Shown here one piece after another: positions 2,143 to 62,865 of a stretch of DNA of 64,000 nucleotides. The notes under the pieces were generated by a model. It ran no database searches, was not told the origin of the DNA, and worked only from the letters and a program-made list of their open reading frames with translations. Both the position numbers and the translations under genes were made by a program. The first letter of the stretch is position 1, and every line of letters begins with the position of its first letter. Origin of the DNA: Octopus vulgaris (taxonomy: Eukaryota); assembly GCA_951406725.2 (NCBI GenBank), contig OX597826.1, positions 70,928,001 through 70,992,000 on the forward strand. Reading direction: 5' to 3'.

Positions 2143-2946
2143 AATTTGTAAATTTTATGGTGATGATGCTGTAGGTGAATTAACTGTTTAAAACGAGAGT
2201 GTTTAACTGGGAAGATGACAATCGCAGTGGAAGACCTTCCAAATTGGATGAAGATATTTTGAAGGCAAAAATTTGAAAACTTGCAGAGTAGTTGGAAGTT
2301 TCTAAAACTACGGCTCATAAACACCTAGTGAAGCTAGGATAAATTTCTCGCTATAATGTATGGGCCCCTCACAAACACTCAGAAAAGTATTGCTTAGACC
2401 GGTATTCCGTTTGTGATATGCTTTTGAAAGGGAATGAAAGCATGCCTTCTTTGAAACATCTTGTGACTGGAGATGAAAACTGGATTGAGTACGAAAACAT
2501 AATGCGAAAAAGATCCTGGAGTTTGCGTAAGGATCCAACAAAACAGCAATCAAACACGAATATCCATGCCAAAATGCTATGCTTTGTGCGCATAACTTAA
2601 CTGGATCTCATTCGAAACCCAAACAGTGACATGATATTATCACAACATTATTTATTATGAGCTTCTTTCACAAAACCACACCGTTAATTCTAATGTGTAC
2701 TGTCGACAGCTGGCTAGTTTGAATATAAAAATAAGAACTGAGGCCGGAGATTACCAAGAGGAAAGGAGTAGTATTCCAACACGACAATGCCCGATCATAT
2801 GTGTCTTTGGCAACCCGAACAAAGTTACATGAACTTGGCCGGAATCATTTACAGCATCCACCATATTCTCCTGATATTGCGGCGTCCGACTACCGCTTGT
2901 TTATGTCTCTACTGAACTAATTGCAAGGAAATGCGTTTAACGATTT

Positions 2947-3255
2947 TTTCTTGCGCCCTTTTCAAGACTAGCCAGGCTCATGGGCCCGGTTTCCCGGTTT
3001 CTGTGGCGTATGTGTTCCCCCCAGCTGAACGGGACGCCAGTCCATCGCAACGTTACTCAAGAAACAAGAAGAAAGAGTGAAAGAAACTTGGGGCGAATGA
3101 GTACAACAGGGGTCGCCACCACCCCCTGCCGGAGCCTCGTGGAGATCTTTAGGCGTTTTCGCTCAATAAACACACACAACGCCCGGTCTGGGAATCGAAA
3201 CCGCGATCCTTCGACCGCGAGTCCGCTGCCCAGACCACTGGACCATTGCGCCCCA
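2947..3255 (-). mobile_element. tRNA-derived SINE (family B, subtype B1), full length
   Basis: A/B box head on the minus strand. V-SINE-like segment CGATGGACTGGCGTCCCGT. 11-bp TSD TTTAACGATTT at 2936-2946 and 3256-3266. Confidence 0.9.
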
Positions 3256-6805: not shown

Positions 6806-6950
6806 TCATTTTTGGGGTGCTATGTGTAAGGGACATATAACGTGAAATTATTTTGTTAACGAAGATGCAACGTTAGTGTGAAAAACATGACAACTTGTAT
6901 TAATTTGTTGTATTTGTTATCTTAATTCGTTTTTCTTCTTTCTGTTTCAG

Positions 6951-7970
6951 ACAATGCATAGCTGGATTGCAGCTTCAATGTCACCATCCCATAGCAGACG
7001 ACGGGAAAAGGATACTAAACGCCATAACCATCATCATCATACCGGTGTACGTGAAAAGCCACACGGGGCCGAAAGCCTCGATCCTGAACTGCTGTGTAAA
7101 ATCCTGCATACTAATATCAGTAAGGACAACCATAAAGAGCATGGCAGACCCAGTTCTCTATTGTCCCCAAGTTATAATACCCTATCAAAATCTTGCGACG
7201 ATATGACCAAATGCGATGACAGCCCACAACCAGTTGAAACTATTATCCATGATAAGAAATATATTGGTTTGGTGCCGGCCGCTTATGTAAATCGAAGCAA
7301 GTCACATAACGATATCATTATCCAGCGACGGCTTGTTACCCCAAAAGATTCGAAATCCGCTTCCCCAACTCCATTACCTTCGGCCTATATGGAAGAACGT
7401 TACGTGATTCGCATCCGAAAAGGACCGCACCATTCACACAAAATGCATAAATCTCATTCGGGTTATCTGAAACCCAAGACTGAGCTTTCCCGATCCTACA
7501 GTGCGCATAACTTAACTGGATCTCATTCGAAACCCAAACAGCGACATGAGATTATCACAACATTTGGTTTGTCCCCAGATTCACCGCCGTCAAGTCAAGA
7601 AATCTCGCCAGAGACAAGCACTGAAAGACAAACACCAACAGATAACCAAAACTCAAGCAGTCATGTTGAGAGAACTCCGTCCGAAGAGCATGACGAGCAA
7701 AACAACCACAAAAATAACAATAATAACAACAACACCAACAACAACAGAGAAAGTCATCACGGAAAAAATAGTCTACACCACAAACTTTTCCTGAACTTAC
7801 CAGTTCCAGAGAGAAGGCATAGTTATGTCGGCGGGCAGACGGCTTACAGTGCCAAATCGAAATCACCAACAGCTAGAAAATCAGAGAGCGGTCATTCTCT
7901 GTTGAGCGTGGAAACCATAAAAGCTCTTGTCACTCCTCATGGCAAGAAGCACCACAGAGATATGAAATAA
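6951..7970 (+). CDS. Terminal coding exon of an unidentified gene; Ser/His/Pro/Lys-rich, probably disordered C-terminal tail (~339 aa)
   Basis: Strong acceptor TTTTTCTTCTTTCTGTTTCAG|ACA at 6950/6951. 1020-nt non-repetitive open frame ending in TAA at 7968-7970. Higher GC than flanks and no TE motifs. Upstream exons not seen in the window. Confidence 0.85.
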   Translation, partial: TMHSWIAASMSPSHSRRREKDTKRHNHHHHTGVREKPHGAESLDPELLCKILHTNISKDNHKEHGRPSSLLSPSYNTLSKSCDDMTKCDDSPQPVETIIHDKKYIGLVPAAYVNRSKSHNDIIIQRRLVTPKDSKSASPTPLPSAYMEERYVIRIRKGPHHSHKMHKSHSGYLKPKTELSRSYSAHNLTGSHSKPKQRHEIITTFGLSPDSPPSSQEISPETSTERQTPTDNQNSSSHVERTPSEEHDEQNNHKNNNNNNNTNNNRESHHGKNSLHHKLFLNLPVPERRHSYVGGQTAYSAKSKSPTARKSESGHSLLSVETIKALVTPHGKKHHRDMK

Positions 7971-37559: not shown

Positions 37560-39580
37560 TAGTCTATTCTATGAAGAAGAATATCCACAAAGCAACTGAC
37601 GGGATCAACACAAAATGGTCAATTATTAAAGTGGGTACCATCATCAGAATAATGCAGTGGAAAGTATATTTTCACAACCGTTAAACGATTTCACTAAAAT
37701 CTATGTTCCATGTAAACATCTAAAACTAACCACCTTGGATTCAATTATTCTGTAACGCTGAAGCAAAATCCTTAGAGATATATCGTAATGATTTCTAACA
37801 AATACTGTAATCAGATATCATAACTTTTAAGAACTCTAACGAAACCTTCACATTTTAAGACACGATGAAACATTTATACAAATTCTATGAAGACGGGATA
37901 TGCTATAAAAAAAAACTCTCAAAATTACAGAAATGTAACTCAAATACCTATGGTGATATCTACTATAAGGCAAAATAAATACCGGGTACCAAATTTATAT
38001 AAAGAAGTGCTTAACGTACTTTTTGTTTAACTCTTAAGAACAACAAGAATCTCACTAGAAAACATAGTGCAGGCTAATAAACCTTGTCAGAGTGAGCTTG
38101 CATAAGTCAGCAAGCACCTACTAAACTGCATTAATGATATATATATAAGCGATACCACCAACTGCAAATTTACCCAATTCGATATTGTCGAATTCTAGCC
38201 TTCACTTTCAAAGACACGCTTTACAAGGACCGTGGAATTTGTAAAGGTGTTTTACGAGATTACGCATACCAACTGTCGCTATTTTTTATCAGTAACTCAT
38301 AGAAATCTTTCGTTAACTCAACAAATGAAAAACAAGCCTATGAAGGAATCCATAGATTAAAGGATGTAACCTGCTTTCTCTTCAGTTTTTCCCTACTCAC
38401 CAGTCAAACGGAATTTTAATTTTGAAATTTACGTACTTGTTCGTCTGAATGAATTGTGATATTTTGTAACTGAAGCTTTCTATCAGGCTATCAAGCATTG
38501 GTGTTCACAAGAACTCGATGTATTCACTTGAACAATTTCTATCTCCACTTATTAAAACGATATGATAAACGTCGCCCTTTTCAAGCCTAGCTAGGCTCAT
38601 GGGCCCGGTTTCCCGGTTTCTGTGGCGTATGTGTTACCCCAGCTGGACGGGACGCCATTCCACCGGGCGTTGTGTGTGTTTATTGAGCGAAAACACCTAA
38701 AAAACTCCACGAGGTTCCGGCAGGGGGTGGTGGCGACCCCTGTTGTACTCTTTCGCCCCAACATTCTCTCATTCTTTCTTCCTGTTTCTTGAGTAATGCT
38801 GCGATGGACTGGCGTCCCGTCCAGCTGGGTGGAACACATATGCCACAAAAACCGGGAAACCGGGCCCATGAGCCTGGCTAGGCTTGAAAATGGCGAAAAG
38901 AAAAGAAAGAATATGGTTTATTAGACCATTACGGTAAATCTAACATTACCAAGAATTTCTTAAACCTAATTTGAAAATAATTTGCATGAGACACAAATAT
39001 TCCAAATTGTTCAATCAGACATATTTATTAGTTATCGTGACAAGAACAGAATGTAGGGAATATCGTGGCATTTAGTAAGAGCCTTTACTACCAAAGAATT
39101 TCAGAGACTCGGTGAATAAATCGTCAAAAAACCATGAGAATAATACAAGATGTAAACCGACGCTTCAGAGGACATAAACTACAACTGCTAAAGTAGAAGG
39201 TTATGTACTTTCAGTGACTTATGCAAGACTGAAACTATAATTTATTTAGCCATTGTTTCCATTCCCAAAGATACAGAACCTCCGATATGGTATATCAGAA
39301 TACGCGAGGGTAGTCTCAAACATCGGTAGTTAAACCAAAATTCCACATTTCTACATAATGTTCACAAATAAATATCGCACCATTTCCAATGCATATATAA
39401 GACTGGAAGGAAAACGGTGCTGAAATTTTAGAATCACTCGGTCTACATTGAACTTCTGCAGCATCAGCTTCATGCATCACAATTGCGATAAATTTTTCTG
39501 GCTGCGAAAACTGATAAGACAAAAGAAATCGGAGCTAACTAGTAACTGCTGCCAAAAGAATTAATACTATCTTGAGAATT
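37560..39580 (+). mobile_element. Heavily decayed Penelope-like retroelement
   Basis: Fragments RIMQWKVYF (cf. RMRWKAxFF), PCQSELA*VSKHLL (cf. PAKSELGKISK), CKFTQFDIVEF*PSLS (RT motif FDIVDFYPSI) and C-terminal KSELTSNCCQKN (cf. RSELISKCRH), all in the expected order. Confidence 0.75.
38571..38910. mobile_element. Headless two-tailed SINE B1 (inverted tail fused to + strand body) inside the Penelope
   Basis: 38573-38662 is the reverse complement of 38805-38896. Body 38662-38910 matches B1 from ACCGGGCGTT onward. Confidence 0.85.
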
Positions 39581-39819: not shown

Positions 39820-40778
39820 CTAGCAGCATAGCCCGGCGTTGCCCGGGTATGTAAGAGCCCCTAGTAGGCAACGACTAATCCCAATCTAGTCCTTTCCCTC
39901 TAGGGAACGAAGGCGCATGTGTAGGTTGCAATGTCTTCTCTTCACTCGAATACTTCTGTGTATACGATGTTCCTAGCTGTCCCTTTGGGCGAAAACATAA
40001 AATCATCATTGCGCCTCCCAACGCGTGAACAGCCCACGTAGAGTTGACCGTGGGCGAAGCACTGTTCGCCCAACTGTAACCCAGCGACTTGTAGCGTTTG
40101 GCCTTGGGATTTATTGATGGACATTGCGAAGTAGAGTTTAACAGGAAACTGAGAACGCCTGAAGTGGATTGGTAGGTCAGCGCCCGACGGTTGAAGGTGC
40201 ATGCGCGGAATGAAGACGTCCTCTCCCTTCCCACAACGGGTAAGTATTGTGGCTGTTATTAGATGTGGTGGCAAATGTTTCACAACCAGACGTGTGCCGT
40301 TGCACTGTTTAGGTGGAAGCAAATTCCTGATGAGCATAATGGGCGCACCGACTTTTAACTTCAGGATGTGTGGCGGCAGGCCTGGCGGTTCAAGTGAATT
40401 CAGGAATTCAACAGGATAATCGACAAGCTCGGCGGGGTCTGCTGTCCTATCAATAGATTTGTAGACGTGGACATCAGCAGGAATAGCTTCAAGTAGCTGG
40501 ATATTGATGGAGATGAGAGTTAAAAAGGTCGAGTTGCGTTCCCTAGACAGTGTGTGATTTGTGTTTCTGATTCTCGACCCCATGTCGAATTTATCGATTT
40601 TGTTCAGAACTGGGGGAACTTTTCAAAATTTTCGCTGCGTTAGTTTTGAATTATGACATTTGGCTATGTGTGTGTCAAGTTTCATCAGAATCGGTTGAAA
40701 GCCGTGGTCAGGGTGAGGTTACAACCTGACAGACACACAGACACACACAAGACAAACTGCCGTTTATATATAGAGAGA
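39820..40778 (-). mobile_element. Internally deleted mini-Helitron with both termini intact
   Basis: Minus strand 5' A|TCTCTCTATATATAAAC; 3' hairpin CCCGGGCAACGCCGGG then CTAG|T. Inserted between A and T with no TSD. Confidence 0.93.
39942..40583 (-). CDS. Helitron PIF1-like helicase, C-terminal fragment (213 aa, uninterrupted)
   Basis: YPVEFLNSLEPPGLPPHILKLKVGAPIMLIRNL, CNGTRL, QFPVKLYFAMSINKSQGQTL, FAHGQLYVGCSRV, NIVYTEV. Lacks Walker A/B motifs and the Rep domain. Confidence 0.9.
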   Translation of the reverse strand: MGSRIRNTNHTLSRERNSTFLTLISINIQLLEAIPADVHVYKSIDRTADPAELVDYPVEFLNSLEPPGLPPHILKLKVGAPIMLIRNLLPPKQCNGTRLVVKHLPPHLITATILTRCGKGEDVFIPRMHLQPSGADLPIHFRRSQFPVKLYFAMSINKSQGQTLQVAGLQLGEQCFAHGQLYVGCSRVGRRNDDFMFSPKGTARNIVYTEVFE

Positions 40779-40819: not shown

Positions 40820-41123
40820 GTTTGTTCCTTCTCGAGCCACGCCTGGTTCATAAGGGCCAGATTCCCGGTTTCCTTTGCGTATAGGTTCCCCACCTGGACG
40901 GGACGCCGGTCCGTCGCAGGTGAGCTGCAAGATGTAGGAGGAAAGAGTGAGAGAAATCTGTGGCGAAAGAATCAGCAGAAGTTCGCCATTACCTTCTGCA
41001 GCTGCCGCGTGGAGCTTAGGTGTTTCGCTCATAAACGCACACATCACCCGGTCTGAGATTCGAACACGCCATCCCTCGACCGCGAGTCCGCTGCTCTATT
41101 CACTAGGCCATGTGCCTCCACTT
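40820..41123 (-). mobile_element. SINE family B, subtype B2, full length
   Basis: Reverse complement of 62557-62865. TSD AAYTGTTCTAAT at 40808-40819 and 41124-41135. Confidence 0.9.
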
Positions 41124-44783: not shown

Positions 44784-45963
44784 TGTCTTTGCTGTATTTC
44801 ATCATTTGAATTCTTCCTCTGAAGAAGCTGGTTTCTAAAAAGACAGAAAGTTCCGTCTTGAAATGTAGATAACGAAAACAAAGTATGTGTGTGTGTGTGT
44901 GTGTGTGTGTGATGGACAGCGAATAGGCTGCATTGATAGAGCCTCAGATAAAGTACTAAATAGTGTTCGTTCCGTCTCTCCCCCTCTGAGTTCAAATCGA
45001 AATGAGATCAATACTGCCTTCTTTTCTAACAAGGTCGATAAATGAATCATAGGTTCGGTACTAATTTTATTAGTATACTAATATAACTGAAATCCAATAT
45101 AACAAAATGTGTGCACTTTAACTGAGAAAATGATCCTCTTAAAGCACAGCAAAATATTATAGCATTTGTATACACACACGCGCATTCATTCATAAGCGCG
45201 CACATGCGCAATACGTGCTTGCGCATGTGTACAGGTAGACTTTTAAATAAACAAGAAACGACGTATATATCATGCTAAAATAAACGTACATATTAATAAA
45301 AATAGTGATTTAAAACATCTAGAAGAGAGATAGGTTGGATAACGAAATATATATATATATTTTGACATTTCTTCATTGCGAATATTTCAAGTTTTCTATA
45401 GGCGCTCTTAGATCAAGTCGCCTGCCAAGCAAATAGAACTCTGAAATAGTTTTAACAAATACTAAATTATTTATATGTTTATTCCAATTCTAATTGGTTA
45501 GTTGCTGAGATAATATCTGCAGCTGTTAACAGTGCTTACTATTTGATATTTCATTATCTATAATTGTCATCTCTGTAAATCATAGGTTTCGCTTTCTACT
45601 TTAAATAGTACGTACGAATTATTCTGTCACAATAATACCATACTACACCTGTTAGTACCTCATTCATACAGTGCAAATGACAGGGAACATAAAATATAAA
45701 CTGTGTCTATGCGTATTGTGGGCGAGTTATGAGCACAACTGGCTCAATGTGGGTGTATATAAGTTTTATCTTTTAGTCGGGAAACAGGTCATTACCTTTT
45801 GAACAGCCTTCTAATAGTACAGAGTCTCAAGATTTATGGAAAGGAAGTGGGGAAGAAGATAACTTTAAACCGGAGACTTTTGTTATACCCGAATGCTTAC
45901 AAGAGAATGAAATCTACTAGAGGCATTCAAGAGTCAGGTATAGGTATTAAACCGGGCGATTGT

Positions 45964-46212
45964 TGTTTGTTCCTTCTCGAACCACGCCTGGCTCATAAGG
46001 GCCGGTTTCCCGGTTTCTTGACGTATAGGTCCCCCACCTGGACGGGACGCCGGTCCGTCGCAGGTGAGCTGCAAGATGCAGGAGGAAAGAGTGAGAGAAA
46101 GTCGTGGCGAAAGAGTCAGCAGAAGTTTCGCCATTACCTTCTGCCGGAGCTGCGTGGAGCTTAGGTGTTTCGCTCATAAACACACACATCGCCCGGTCTG
46201 AGATTCGAACCC
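45964..46212 (-). mobile_element. SINE B2, 5' truncated at the B box
   Basis: Near-identical to 40820-41065. Confidence 0.9.
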
Positions 46213-46220
46213 TCTAATTA

Positions 46221-46259
<39 letters not shown>

Positions 46260-52621: not shown

Positions 52622-54140
52622 TATCAAACATCGTGCACCTGTACAAGAACAATGTGACAACCACAGAGACATCTCATTGCTGAGCATCGCAGGAAAGATC
52701 ATGGCCCGTGATATTCTGAACCGCATCACACACCACCTGCTGGACGACGTGGTCTCAGAGAGCCAGTGTGGATTTAGGAACAACAGGGAGACATTAGACA
52801 TGGTCTTTGCAGTACGGAAAATACAAGAGAAATGCCGATGAACAAAGCCAGAACCTCTACATCCTCTTCGTGGACCTGATGAAAGCTTTTGACACTGTCA
52901 GCTGAGAGGGCCTTTGGGATATCTTGTCCAAGCTAGGCTGCCCACCGAAGCTCGTCAGGATCATCCAGTCATTTCATGATGGCTTGATGGCTCGCATCGT
53001 GGAAAACGGAGATGTCTCTGATCCATTCCCGGTCTCCAATGGCATGAAGCAAGGCTGCGTGATGGCACCCACACTCTTCAGCCTCATGTTTGCCACCATG
53101 CTCTTCCGCGCCCTGTCAAAGTTTGACGCTGGTGTTATTATTCGCTACAGATGTGACGGCCGATTCTTGGACCTCAGACGTTTGAAGGCCAAAACCAAAG
53201 TCCTGTTTGCAGACGATTGTGCGTTTGCAGCATTGAATGAACCAGACCTGCAAGAACTTGCCACTTGTCTCGCAGAAGCAGCAAAATCCTTCGGACTGAC
53301 CATTAGCCTGCGAAAAATGGAAGTGATGTTTCAGCCCGCACCTGTCCTGACACCTCCTGAGTCTCAAATTGGGATTGAGGGCACAACTCTGAACAACGTG
53401 GAGAGACTTAAATACCTGGGAAGCTGCCTGTCTTCAAACTGCAGAGTGGACAAAGATGTCTCCATGAGGCTTGCAAAAGCAGTAGCTTCGTTTGGCAGAC
53501 TTTGGACATGTGTGTGGGCCAAATGAGGCATCAGACTTTCCACCAAGCCGGCAGTCTATAGGACAGTCGTCATCACTTCTCTGCTCTACGGCCGTGGGAC
53601 GTGGACGCTGTATAGGAGGAAAATGAGAGCACTTGAACAGTTCCACCTCCGCTGCTTGCGACGAATCATGGGAATTTCCTGGGAGGACAGAGTCTCCAAC
53701 ACTGAAGTGGTTCGCAGAGCCGAAATACCCGGGATCGAAGTCCTCATCATGAAGGCTCAGCTCCGAATGGACAACCAGGTCTACCAAAGATGTTCTTCTT
53801 CTCTGAGCTGGCTTCTGGAGCAAGAAACCCTGGAAGGCCACTGAGGCGATACAAGGACAGCCTGAAAGCTTCCCTTGAGGCCTGCGGCATTTCAGCCCGT
53901 AGCTGGGCATCGCTTGCCTCTGACCGCAGCGCCTGTCTTCCAGGTGTCCAAAAGGGTGTTAGGCTGTTCGAGAAAAAGCGCTTCAAGAAGCGACAAGCCC
54001 GAAAAGAGAGGATCCCCAACTCTACTTCTGCTGTTACGTGCCCAACATGTGGCCGCATCTGCGCGTCCGCCTTTGGGATCTGCTCCCAGCTCCAGCGTCA
54101 CTGACGTCATTGTCGAACCCCTACAGACTTCCATTATTAT
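52622..54140 (+). mobile_element. 5'-truncated RTE/BovB-like LINE, pseudogenised reverse transcriptase
   Basis: IVHLYKN, HRDISLLSIAGKIMAR, ESQCGFR, FVDLMKAFDTVS, GMKQGCVMAPTLF, LFADD, KYLGS, FHLRCLRRI, and C-terminal CPTCGRIC..QRH*. Several stops and frameshifts. Confidence 0.95.
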
Positions 54141-58629: not shown

Positions 58630-59770
58630 CAGGCTGTTCTGACTAAACTAGACAGATTGCATAAAAAGCAAAAACACAGTATCCCATCCTAAAATAAAAA
58701 TACTTTCAAAAATCAAAATCTATGAACAAGGTTATGGCTGAGAGATAACAGTTTACTCAAAGTAGCTGCCTCTGCTTGCACCGCGGCCTCAAGAGAGCCC
58801 AGGAACCTGGAGCATACGTTCCTCAGTGTCCCCGAGAAGATCTTCGAAACCCCCTTGATGTTGCAGACAGAGTGGTTAGTTTCGTTCTCAACTGCGTCCC
58901 AAACACAGTAATCCATGAGATTACAATCGAGGTAAATAGGGGATTGTGAAGGCGCATGGCTCAGTGGTTAGAGCGTCGAGCTTACGATGGTGAGGTTGTG
59001 AGCTCGAATCCCGGACCGGACTGTGTTTTGTGTTCTTGAGCAAAGCACTTTATTTCACGTTGCTCCAGTTCACTCAGCTGTAGAAATGAGTTGCGACGTC
59101 ACAGGTGCCAAGCTGTATCGACCTTTGTCTTTCCCTTGGATAACACTGGTGGCGTGGAGAGGGAAAGCCGGTATGCATGGGCGACTGCTGGACTTGTGCC
59201 TGGGAGGGTGACTTTCTATGTGCAATCCCATGGTCTGTATCGTGACCGAAGGGGGTTTCAGAATTACGAGATCAGAAATTGAGGCTACTGAAGTCGTAGA
59301 AATTCTCCGACAACCACTTCTGACTCGTTCCGAAGGTATAGCAAGCCACCGAATCCTACTGAATTAAGCCTGAAGTTCTGCTTAAAAATGTGGGAATGAA
59401 ATCCTGTTTTGCAGACGTAGTCAGTACCCCTGCTGTGACCCTTTCTGCTGACCACGGTCCATTTCACAGAATATTGAGCAGCAGTTACGATGACGGCATT
59501 TTGATACCCAGGACGAAACATCATGGTACAGGTAACTCTTTTCCGATTTTCAGATGATTTCCAGTCCTCCATCTCAGCTATTTCAAAGGATAAACCTACA
59601 ATCCAAGTATCGAGGTATAGGAAGAAAAAGTTAGCTTCAAGCAATCCGTTGAAAATATAAAGAAACAATTTTCGCAGATAATAGTGGTTTACTGAGACGA
59701 TAGGTTGTAGATTTTTCTGATCGAAATAAGATATATTGGAAAAAGATTTTTTTTTATATTTCATGGTAGG
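58630..59770 (-). mobile_element. Decayed DD37D/maT-like Tc1-mariner transposon
   Basis: DCNLMDYCVWDAVE (cf. SPDxNPLDYxVW) and C-terminal VCSRFLGSLEAAVQAEA. Left end TA|CAGGCTGTTC; right end unclear. Confidence 0.65.
58950..59258 (+). mobile_element. tRNA/CORE-type SINE (family D) nested in the maT-like element
   Basis: A box TGGCTCAGTGG, B box-like GCTCGAATCC and CORE-like GTGTTCTTGAGCAAAGCACTT. Degraded relatives near 62165-62290 and 48530-48670(-). Confidence 0.8.
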
Positions 59771-60130: not shown

Positions 60131-60320
60131 ATGCGCAATGGCACAGTGGTTAGGGCAGCGGACTCGCGGTCGTAGGATCACGGTTTCGATTCTCAGACCG
60201 GGCGTTGTGAGTGTTTATTGAGCGAAAACACTTAAAGCTCCACGAAGCTCCGGCAGGGGGGGGGGCGATCACTGCTGTACTTATTAACAACATCTGATAG
60301 CTTGGTCAGTTACGGTGACA
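60129..60320 (+). mobile_element. SINE B1 head joined to an alternative 3' tail
   Basis: Head matches 3130-3255(-). Tail CAACATCTGATAGCTTGGTCAGTTA matches 48982-49010. Confidence 0.75.
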
Positions 60321-62556: not shown

Positions 62557-62865
62557 GGGGGAGGCACATGGCCTAGTGGTTAGAGCAGTGGACTCGCAGT
62601 CGAGGGATCGCGGGTTCGAATCTCAGACCGGGCGATGTGTGTGTTTATGAGTGAAACACCTAAGCTCCACGCAGCTACGACAGAAGGTAATGGCGAAACT
62701 TCTGCTGACTCTTTCGGCACAACTTTCTCTCACTCTTTCCTCCTGCATCTTGCAGCTCACTTTCGACGGACCGGCGTCCCGTCCAGATGGGGAACCTATA
62801 CGCCACGGAAACCAGGAAACCGGCCCTTATGAGCCAGGCATGGCTCGAGAAGGAACAAACTATAT
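62557..62865 (+). mobile_element. SINE B2, full length
   Basis: A box TGGCCTAGTGG and B box GGTTCGAATC. 14-bp TSD ATTGTCCAGGYTTA at 62543-62556 and 62866-62879. Confidence 0.92.

What the first reader, a model, noticed from the sequence alone, without database searches (positions are those of the whole stretch)
46105..46144. Conserved, covarying H-type pseudoknot inside SINE family B
Seen in SINE-sense orientation. Subtype B2 reads GCAGAAG-gtaa-TGGCGAAA-CTTCTGC-tgactc-TTTCGCCA: S1 7 bp, L1 4 nt, S2 8 bp, no L2, L3 6 nt (46105-46144 minus; similar at 40961-40999 minus and 62681-62719 plus). Subtype B1 reads GCAGGGG-gtggt-GGCGA-CCCCTGT-tgtactc(a/t)t-TCGCC (38720-38757 plus, 3092-3129 minus). 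Two adjacent S1 pairs switch AA:TT to GG:CC and S2 complementarity is kept. Inference: selection on an RNA fold downstream of the tRNA head. Possible roles include blocking 5'-3' exonuclease, binding the ribosome or RT, or acting as a switch. I do not know of a description of this structure.
Basis: partly seen in the sequence, partly recalled or inferred. Interest (0 to 1): 0.72.

Follow-up and report, generated by a model that had tools for sequence, protein, structure and literature searches.

The report
SINE carries borrowed LINE leader pseudoknot
A very common short jumping element in this genome, likely an octopus's, carries a 40-base stretch whose mutation pattern fits a small RNA knot; it was likely borrowed from just in front of the gene of BovB-type long jumping elements, and it likely helps the RNA sit on ribosomes, which is untested.

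Summary
The motif is real at all five sites; 0 of 3,000 shuffles of the element give a 7+8-pair H-type pattern. It lies in a tRNA/CORE-headed SINE of about 80,000 copies, which keeps it in front of four different 3' ends. Stem 1 shows three double changes and no break fixed in a subfamily. Stem 2 shows one double change but tolerates mismatches: a C·A form dominates in another organism's reads. The motif resembles the RTE/BovB 5'-UTR segment known to enter SINE bodies (30 of 43 letters; profile E only 0.03-0.5). That segment fits the same pseudoknot, covaries across RTE families and ends 10-12 bases before an ATG. It is not an HDV ribozyme or a frameshift signal. Best reading: an RTE leader pseudoknot, likely a start-codon/ribosome-positioning element, kept by the SINE as a ribosome-docking module (0.4). 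Rivals are RTE-protein binding and a hairpin-only relic. No description was found in 10 literature searches. Earlier unreviewed scan notes report a similar RTE leader-pseudoknot idea for a module in this genome's LINE tails; I did not compare it.

The parts
46105..46144 (-). Predicted H-type pseudoknot, B2 form (S1 7-9 pairs, L1 4 nt, S2 8 pairs, no L2, L3 4-6 nt)
45965..46212 (-). 5'-truncated B2 SINE copy holding the motif: B box, CORE-like 5' half, motif, pyrimidine tract, B2 tail; no A box
40820..41119 (-). Full-length B2 copy, 9-bp flanking direct repeat; motif at 40961-40999 (one A fewer in S2a); best hit of the RTE-motif model (E 0.033)
62560..62860 (+). Full-length B2 copy with A and B boxes and 10-bp flanking direct repeat; motif at 62681-62719, one break in each stem
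2946..3255 (-). Full-length B1 copy, 11-bp flanking direct repeat; motif at 3092-3129
38662..38904 (+). Headless B1 copy; motif at 38720-38757
38572..38665 (-). Inverted copy of the B1 3' end standing where the head of the 38662 copy should be
60133..60320 (+). B4-type copy with internal deletion: head, S1a, S2a and S1b present, S2b and tract lost, B4 3' end follows
58947..59091 (+). Related CORE-SINE (family C; matched head and CORE part), likely parent type: full CORE 3' half at the place where family B has the pseudoknot

Best explanation
The motif is a covarying two-helix RNA element, predicted to fold as an H-type pseudoknot, that was likely captured from the 5' leader of a BovB-type RTE LINE, where it likely positions the ribosome at the start codon, and the SINE likely keeps it to dock its RNA on ribosomes near newly made LINE proteins. 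Shown: the pairing pattern and its covariation in the SINE; retention in front of four different 3' ends; the same two-helix layout in RTE leaders, with covarying S1 and an ATG 10-12 nt after S2; no ATG within 45 nt in the SINE. Inferred: common descent from the RTE motif (about 0.8); capture by template switch or recombination, replacing the 3' half of a CORE body; co-formation of both helices (about 0.6); ribosome binding; any benefit to retrotransposition.
For: SINE covariation: 15 of 28 rows of one class carry the S1 double change against 1 of 72 others, first 100 of 137 rows; 23,236 of 25,357 exact matches keep the variable S2 pair Watson-Crick. The two CpGs that B3 lost of the 15 in B1's shared region are exactly the S2 partners. 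RTE motif: 27 hits in this genome, control 0, upstream of decayed EN/RT frames in L137/L231 and L142/L230. In metagenome hits, S1 positions outside the search pattern pair Watson-Crick in 47 of 60 cells for 12 RTE-like loci against 18 of 60 for 12 chance hits (1 locus unclassified). Five S1 pairs show double changes in 24 aligned loci. Published consensus text shows S2 double changes (BovB_Plat and BovB_Ta; SINE2-1_EC). The ATG follows at 10-12 nt in 9 of 11 loci examined and opens endonuclease ORFs of 391 and 269 aa in L167 and L181; the motif is read in different frames in those two, so it is not conserved as protein. Homology: 30 of 43 identical to L167, p 1e-4 against a null that keeps the pseudoknot; B2 copies are the top 5 hits of an RTE-only HMM in 664 kb. 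Four tails; none matched the RTE loci sampled except through nested SINE copies.
Against: No experiment. Homology statistics are modest (CM E 0.033 and 0.55; HMM E 0.17-2.7; B3 against RTE p 0.001-0.07), and I picked the RTE motif because it looked alike. S2 is loose: in organism E (run X16) the S2a base is C in 77% and its partner G in 4% of contig depth, and another S2b base is changed in 25% with no listed partner change (unlinked depth sums). B1 and B2 each carry a fixed S2 mismatch. No S2 double change among my 24 RTE loci (S2a was fixed by the pattern), and S2 alone did not separate RTE from chance hits (9/12 against 4/12, p 0.10). Nested folds compete: break-even loop penalty only 4.0 kcal/mol for full-length B1, 9.7 for B2, 11.0 for B3. 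L167 and L181 have in-frame Met codons further upstream, and L169's ATG does not open its EN frame as read. The likeness of the 10-12 nt spacing to HCV-type IRES pseudoknots is recalled; the paper was not held. Upstream parts survive tail swaps passively, so retention alone proves little.
Confidence: 0.4

Rival explanations
1. Same RTE-derived fold, but it is a binding site for the RTE ORF protein, like the R2 5' RNA. It is needed in cis with the 3' tail in bipartite elements, and the B SINEs use or once used it that way.
For: Bipartite 5'+3' structure recurs in RTE-mobilised SINEs (PMC5786205). Most of the 27 own-genome motif loci look like short bipartite derivatives. The R2 5' RNA holds a conserved pseudoknot and regulates integration (PMC12203849 passages).
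Against: This rival does not explain the fixed distance to the ATG.
Confidence: 0.22
2. Relic. The segment came from RTE and rides along in front of swapped tails; selection in the SINE keeps only a stable S1 hairpin or general RNA compactness, and S2 is decaying, with its one double change produced by CpG decay.
For: S2 mismatches fixed in large subfamilies. A C·A class exists here too (1,225 exact matches, 50 of the first 100 with the older junction A). The S2 double change is two CpG-type transitions. Nested folding never needs both helices.
Against: The repaired U-A form far outnumbers C·A here. S2 keeps 83-96% of cells paired in all four subfamilies. Relative to the RTE motif a whole G-C pair is inserted in S2 (alignment). 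Only the two partner CpGs were lost in B3.
Confidence: 0.23
3. Stability element or switch: the knot blocks an exonuclease, or alternates with a long nested hairpin (S1a pairing with the downstream pyrimidine tract).
For: In B2 the nested alternative is strong (z -3.3; pair probabilities near 1).
Against: The tract did not change when S1a changed AA to GG, while S1b did. No three-way junction of known flaviviral xrRNAs (recalled); no Rfam match.
Confidence: 0.08
4. Independent origin: a SINE-born pseudoknot whose likeness to the RTE motif is chance or convergence, functionally replacing a smaller H-type pattern in the CORE 3' half.
For: Profile E-values are weak. The RTE inner loop is replaced by continuous pairs. 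Family C has a 4+5-pair H-type pattern at the same place.
Against: 30 of 43 identity with helices in the same register. The CORE pattern appears in 363 of 5,000 shuffles. No intermediate RTE family was found, which is neutral.
Confidence: 0.07

Closest known systems
Solo RTE 5'-UTR fragments in SINE bodies, above all hagfish EbuSINE2 (tRNA - Deu - RTE5' - unknown tail); Kojima 2018, PMC5786205 (parts 1-4 of 5 and supplement parts 1, 3, 8, 10 read)
   Same: tRNA head, conserved body, short RTE-leader piece, tail of other origin. EbuSINE2's RTE match (278-321) is this same 44-nt segment, about the extent of the fold.
   Different: The passages read give no structure and speculate on transcription-regulator binding. 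This family is not found in the supplement by five search terms. The inner loop is closed and S2 has an extra pair here.
Bipartite RTE/BovB SINEs (Bov-A2, Bov-tA, MAR1, SINE-1_Pmo, SINE2-1_EC)
   Same: Carry the same leader segment, which by eye fits the same two helices with double changes.
   Different: They also carry an RTE 3' tail; none was found for B1-B4.
CORE-SINEs of molluscs (octopus OR1/OR2, BivaCORE-SINE2); PMC4824008 and PMC4758252 passages
   Same: Family C's CORE 3' part closely matches the BivaCORE-SINE2 text. Family B shares a related head and CORE-like 5' half.
   Different: In family B the CORE 3' half is replaced by the pseudoknot and a pyrimidine tract. OR1/OR2 sequences were not seen, so identity with them is untested.
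R2 5' RNA pseudoknot (Bombyx R2); PMC12203849 passages
   Same: Conserved pseudoknot near the start of a non-LTR ORF, proposed for translation initiation; the 5' RNA also regulates integration.
   Different: Different clade, inside the ORF's 5' end, larger RNA; no Rfam match.
HCV-type IRES pseudoknot and Alu-SRP9/14 ribosome targeting (IRES recalled; Alu from PMC7245038 passages)
   Same: Works-like only: a pseudoknot a short fixed distance before the AUG; a SINE RNA fold that aids capture by LINE machinery.
   Different: No sequence or domain homology; 40 nt without other IRES domains; no 7SL part.

Membership tests
tRNA-derived SINE | tRNA-like head with Pol III A and B boxes | tested here: met
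   A and B box matches in the 62560 copy (box patterns recalled); ARAGORN finds no true tRNA
tRNA-derived SINE | Dispersed high copy number with target-site duplications | tested here: met
   16 real of 17 hits in 560 kb unbiased DNA; 9-11 bp direct repeats at 3 of 3 full-length window copies checked
SINE with RTE 5'-UTR-derived body | Body segment homologous to an RTE 5' UTR | tested here: inconclusive
   30/43 identity, p 1e-4, but CM E 0.033-0.55 and HMM E 0.17-2.7; probable, about 0.8
Bipartite RTE-mobilised SINE | 3' tail derived from an RTE 3' end | tested here: not met
   No match of the four tails to 28 RTE-motif loci other than nested SINE copies; only these RTE families were sampled
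CORE-SINE | Full CORE domain after the head | tested here: inconclusive
   Family C matches BivaCORE-SINE2 text; family B keeps only a diverged 5' half
H-type pseudoknot | Two interleaved helices with covariation in each | tested here: met
   S1 three double changes, S2 one, in the SINE; S2 weaker
H-type pseudoknot | Both helices form at once | not testable with these tools
   Break-even loop penalty 4-15 kcal/mol depending on context; needs probing
HDV-like ribozyme | Nested double pseudoknot with P3 and P4 hairpins between the crossing strands (recalled) | tested here: not met
   S2a runs directly into S1b and L3 is 4-9 nt (sequence); no Rfam hit
-1 frameshift signal | Slippery heptamer shortly upstream inside a reading frame (recalled) | tested here: not met
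   None upstream of S1 in 3 SINE consensuses and 8 RTE loci
Xrn1-resistant RNA | Blocks 5'-3' exonuclease; known Rfam folds | not testable with these tools
   No Rfam match; activity needs assay
IRES-like start-positioning element | Fixed short distance to the ORF AUG | tested here: inconclusive
   10-12 nt in 9 of 11 RTE loci; upstream in-frame Met in L167 and L181; no AUG in the SINE
IRES-like start-positioning element | Binds 40S and drives cap-independent initiation | not testable with these tools
   No assay

The most novel reading that the evidence does not exclude
BovB-type RTE LINEs carry an undescribed 40-nt pseudoknot that acts as a minimal ribosome-positioning element before their start codon, and unrelated SINE families (ruminant, python, marsupial, hagfish, and this mollusc family) have repeatedly taken it as a portable ribosome-docking module: a protein-free counterpart of the Alu-SRP trick that works with any partner LINE.
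Probability: 0.27. Interest if true: 0.82.

Novelty: new variant of a known kind. Interest (0 to 1): 0.55.

Why it matters
Why SINE middle bodies, and the RTE 5'-UTR pieces in them, are conserved is an open question (PMC5786205 only speculates). This gives a 40-nt structural hypothesis with defined compensatory mutants, testable in BovB/RTE leaders and in SINEs of several animal groups. It also bears on how RTE mRNA starts translation and on UTR design for RTE-based gene insertion (PMC13708176 passages). If the relic reading holds, it is only a tidy origin story for one SINE body.

Tried and rejected
Rfam: no match at gathering score in the window; only chance-level hits at 45940-46240. A pattern for an RTE family with the SINE-like S2 gave 0 hits. 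An anchored pattern for further S1 variants gave only 2 decayed B4 copies. MAFFT put S1b of B2 out of register and my structure string was off by one, so one search is void; one search replaces it. In alignment A1, L169's S2b is misaligned, which lowers the S2 count. 12 of 25 metagenome hits were chance matches and served as controls; L175 was left unclassified. The RTE family is an old one here: copies 65-88% alike and decayed. Partner LINEs of the four tails were not found. RNA-guess runs hold the family as contigs, which shows neither strand nor independent transcription, and no editing claim can be made. The CORE 4+5 pattern is not significant alone. A conserved switch with the pyrimidine tract was rejected because the tract does not covary. 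The loop-length check used recalled A-form constants and is rough: a 4-nt L3 likely cannot span 9 pairs, so the base of S1 would fray. Papers not held: Ruminski 2011, Kierzek 2009, Moss 2011, Berry 2010. Gogolevsky 2008, Ohshima and Okada 1994 and Akasaki 2010 were not looked up. Kojima's Fig. S4 gave only 3 lines of text.

Full report
Observation. At 46105-46144 on the minus strand, GCAGAAG pairs with CTTCTGC and TGGCGAAA with TTTCGCCA, interleaved. This is the only 7+8-pair hit in the window outside (TA)-rich or tandem repeats, and 0 of 3,000 dinucleotide shuffles of the 248-nt element give one. S1 can extend to 9 pairs. There is no Rfam family and no true tRNA in the window.

The host element. 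The window lies in a 2.8-Gb genome of 227 contigs. It is likely an octopus's: a related family matches a mollusc CORE-SINE text, octopus CORE-SINEs are cited in PMC4824008 and PMC4758252 (passages), and earlier notes say the same (unchecked). Full copies have A and B boxes and 9-11 bp flanking direct repeats. The order is tRNA-like head, CORE-like 5' half, motif, pyrimidine tract, then one of four 3' ends (B1-B4; B1 and B2 tails are related, about 80% alike). A related CORE-SINE, family C, shares the B1 and B3 tails but has the full CORE where B has the motif, so B likely arose by replacing the CORE 3' half. In 560 kb of unselected DNA, 16 of 17 hits were real copies, about 80,000 per genome (none was B2). 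The 46105 copy itself is 5'-truncated and likely silent; selection acts on source elements, not on such copies.

Covariation in the SINE. I mapped pairs in 145 classified copies (36 B1, 40 B2, 47 B3, 22 B4; 2 unclassified; duplicates and pattern-selected loci dropped; most copies fetched by similarity to one query per subfamily). In S1, two adjacent pairs are A-U in all 40 B2 copies and G-C in the others; other fixed differences are G-C/G·U or G·U/A-U exchanges; 94-98% of cells pair. A third S1 double change marks a small class: among the first 100 of 137 copies with U-to-C in S1b, 15 of 28 in one junction class have the partner A-to-G against 1 of 72 others. In S2, C-G becomes U-A in B3; 23,236 of 25,357 exact genome matches are Watson-Crick at that pair, 1,225 are C·A and 896 U·G. 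Of 15 CpGs in the shared region of B1, B3 lost two, and they are these partners. Fixed G·U pairs and folding energies favour the sense strand.

Evidence against a strict S2. B1 has U·C at one pair in 29 of 36 copies, and B2 has A·C at the edge in 40 of 40 while gaining one or two A-U pairs at the other end. The family occurs in runs of organisms coded A-E. In organism E the S2a base is C in 77% of contig depth and the partner G in 4%, and another S2b base is changed in 25% (unlinked sums). A mismatched form therefore amplified well there. Nested folding of full consensus RNAs gives S1 in B1 and S2 in B2 and B3, and in B2 S1a pairs with the downstream tract instead. The pseudoknot wins only if its loop penalty is below 4.0 (B1), 9.7 (B2) or 11.0 (B3) kcal/mol, and 9-15 in a transcript ending just after it. 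Co-formation is plausible, not shown.

Origin. I recalled that the motif resembles the BovB/Bov-A 5' segment and found that segment in the supplement of PMC5786205. A 19-letter pattern from its middle hits this genome 27 times, control 0: mostly an old short bipartite-like family, plus loci followed by decayed endonuclease and RT frames. S1 positions outside the pattern pair in 47 of 60 cells against 18 of 60 (p 2e-7), and each S1a fits its own S1b better than others' (p 0.008 for 9 family representatives). Twenty-four aligned loci show five S1 pairs with double changes and none in S2, where the pattern fixed one strand. Published consensus text adds S2 double changes in BovB_Plat, BovB_Ta and SINE2-1_EC, read by eye; BovB_Es breaks S2. 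The window motif aligns to L167, a BovB copy, at 30 of 43 positions with helices in register, p 1e-4 against a pseudoknot-preserving null. Models built only from RTE loci rank B2 copies first but weakly (E 0.033 and 0.55 in the window; top 5 in 664 kb at E 0.17-2.7). The comparison was chosen after seeing the likeness, so I put homology at about 0.8. No intermediate family was found.

Mechanism. In RTE loci an ATG follows S2 at 10-12 nt in 9 of 11 examined. In L167 and L181 it opens endonuclease ORFs, and the motif is read in different frames in the two, so it acts as RNA; both have in-frame Met codons further upstream. The SINE kept the fold, lost the ATG and carries it before tails that did not match the RTE loci sampled. 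A ribosome-positioning role in the LINE, reused by the SINE to sit near nascent LINE protein, fits all three facts. It parallels the recalled spacing of HCV-type IRES pseudoknots and the Alu domain's role (PMC7245038 passages). I give it 0.4. RTE-protein binding as in R2 5' RNA (PMC12203849 passages) gets 0.22, a hairpin-only relic 0.23, a stability element or switch 0.08, and independent origin 0.07. HDV-like ribozyme and frameshift readings fail on anatomy.

Novelty. RTE 5'-UTR pieces inside SINE bodies are known, and EbuSINE2 holds this very segment before a foreign tail. The parts of that paper that I read give no structure. Ten full-text searches and passage checks in PMC7024060, PMC8501958, PMC13708176, PMC12503042, PMC3747384, PMC4324840 and PMC13282606 found no pseudoknot described for this segment or this SINE. 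Several older primary papers were not held or not looked up, and one supplementary alignment is a picture, so a prior mention is not excluded. Unreviewed notes of this scan describe pseudoknot modules in RTE tails of the same genome, with a leader origin and a fixed distance to the start codon. One of them gives a 25-base core; I did not compare that module with this one, and the notes are not independent support. Verdict: a real feature, a new structural variant of a known kind of SINE body; interest 0.55.

Noticed in passing
window 59028-59091 +; L043:1328-1393; PMC4824008 supplement: The CORE 3' half of family C has its own small H-type pattern (3-4 + 5 pairs) at the place where family B has the large one, and BivaCORE-SINE2 has the same letters with a shorter L3. 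Not significant alone (363 of 5,000 shuffles) and no double change seen; worth testing across all CORE-SINEs.
   Followed up: partly
window 38572-38904: A B1 copy whose head is replaced by an inverted copy of its own 3' end (92% alike); no target duplication found. Twin priming or a second insertion.
   Followed up: no
PMC5786205 supplement parts 8 and 10: A second class of RTE leaders (RTE-1_PSi, RTE-3_PM, WALLSI, MonoRep87) also shows two interleaved complementary stretches by eye, with different sequence.
   Followed up: no
L170, L176, L179, L182: Short bipartite RTE-like repeats in metagenome contigs with the same motif, L3 lengthened to 10-11 nt and (ACT)n-like ends.
   Followed up: partly
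L017, L005, L033, L043, L019, L006: Family B and C SINEs often stand head to tail or as partial tandem copies.
   Followed up: no
window 52906-54101 +; 6891-7967 +; 39945-40622 -: Decayed RT-like frames (52906-54101), a 359-codon open frame that may be a host exon (6891-7967) and a helicase-like fragment (39945-40622); judged from the letters only.
   Followed up: no
L175: Metagenome hit with a good S1 but weak S2 and no RTE ORF nearby; class unknown.
   Followed up: no
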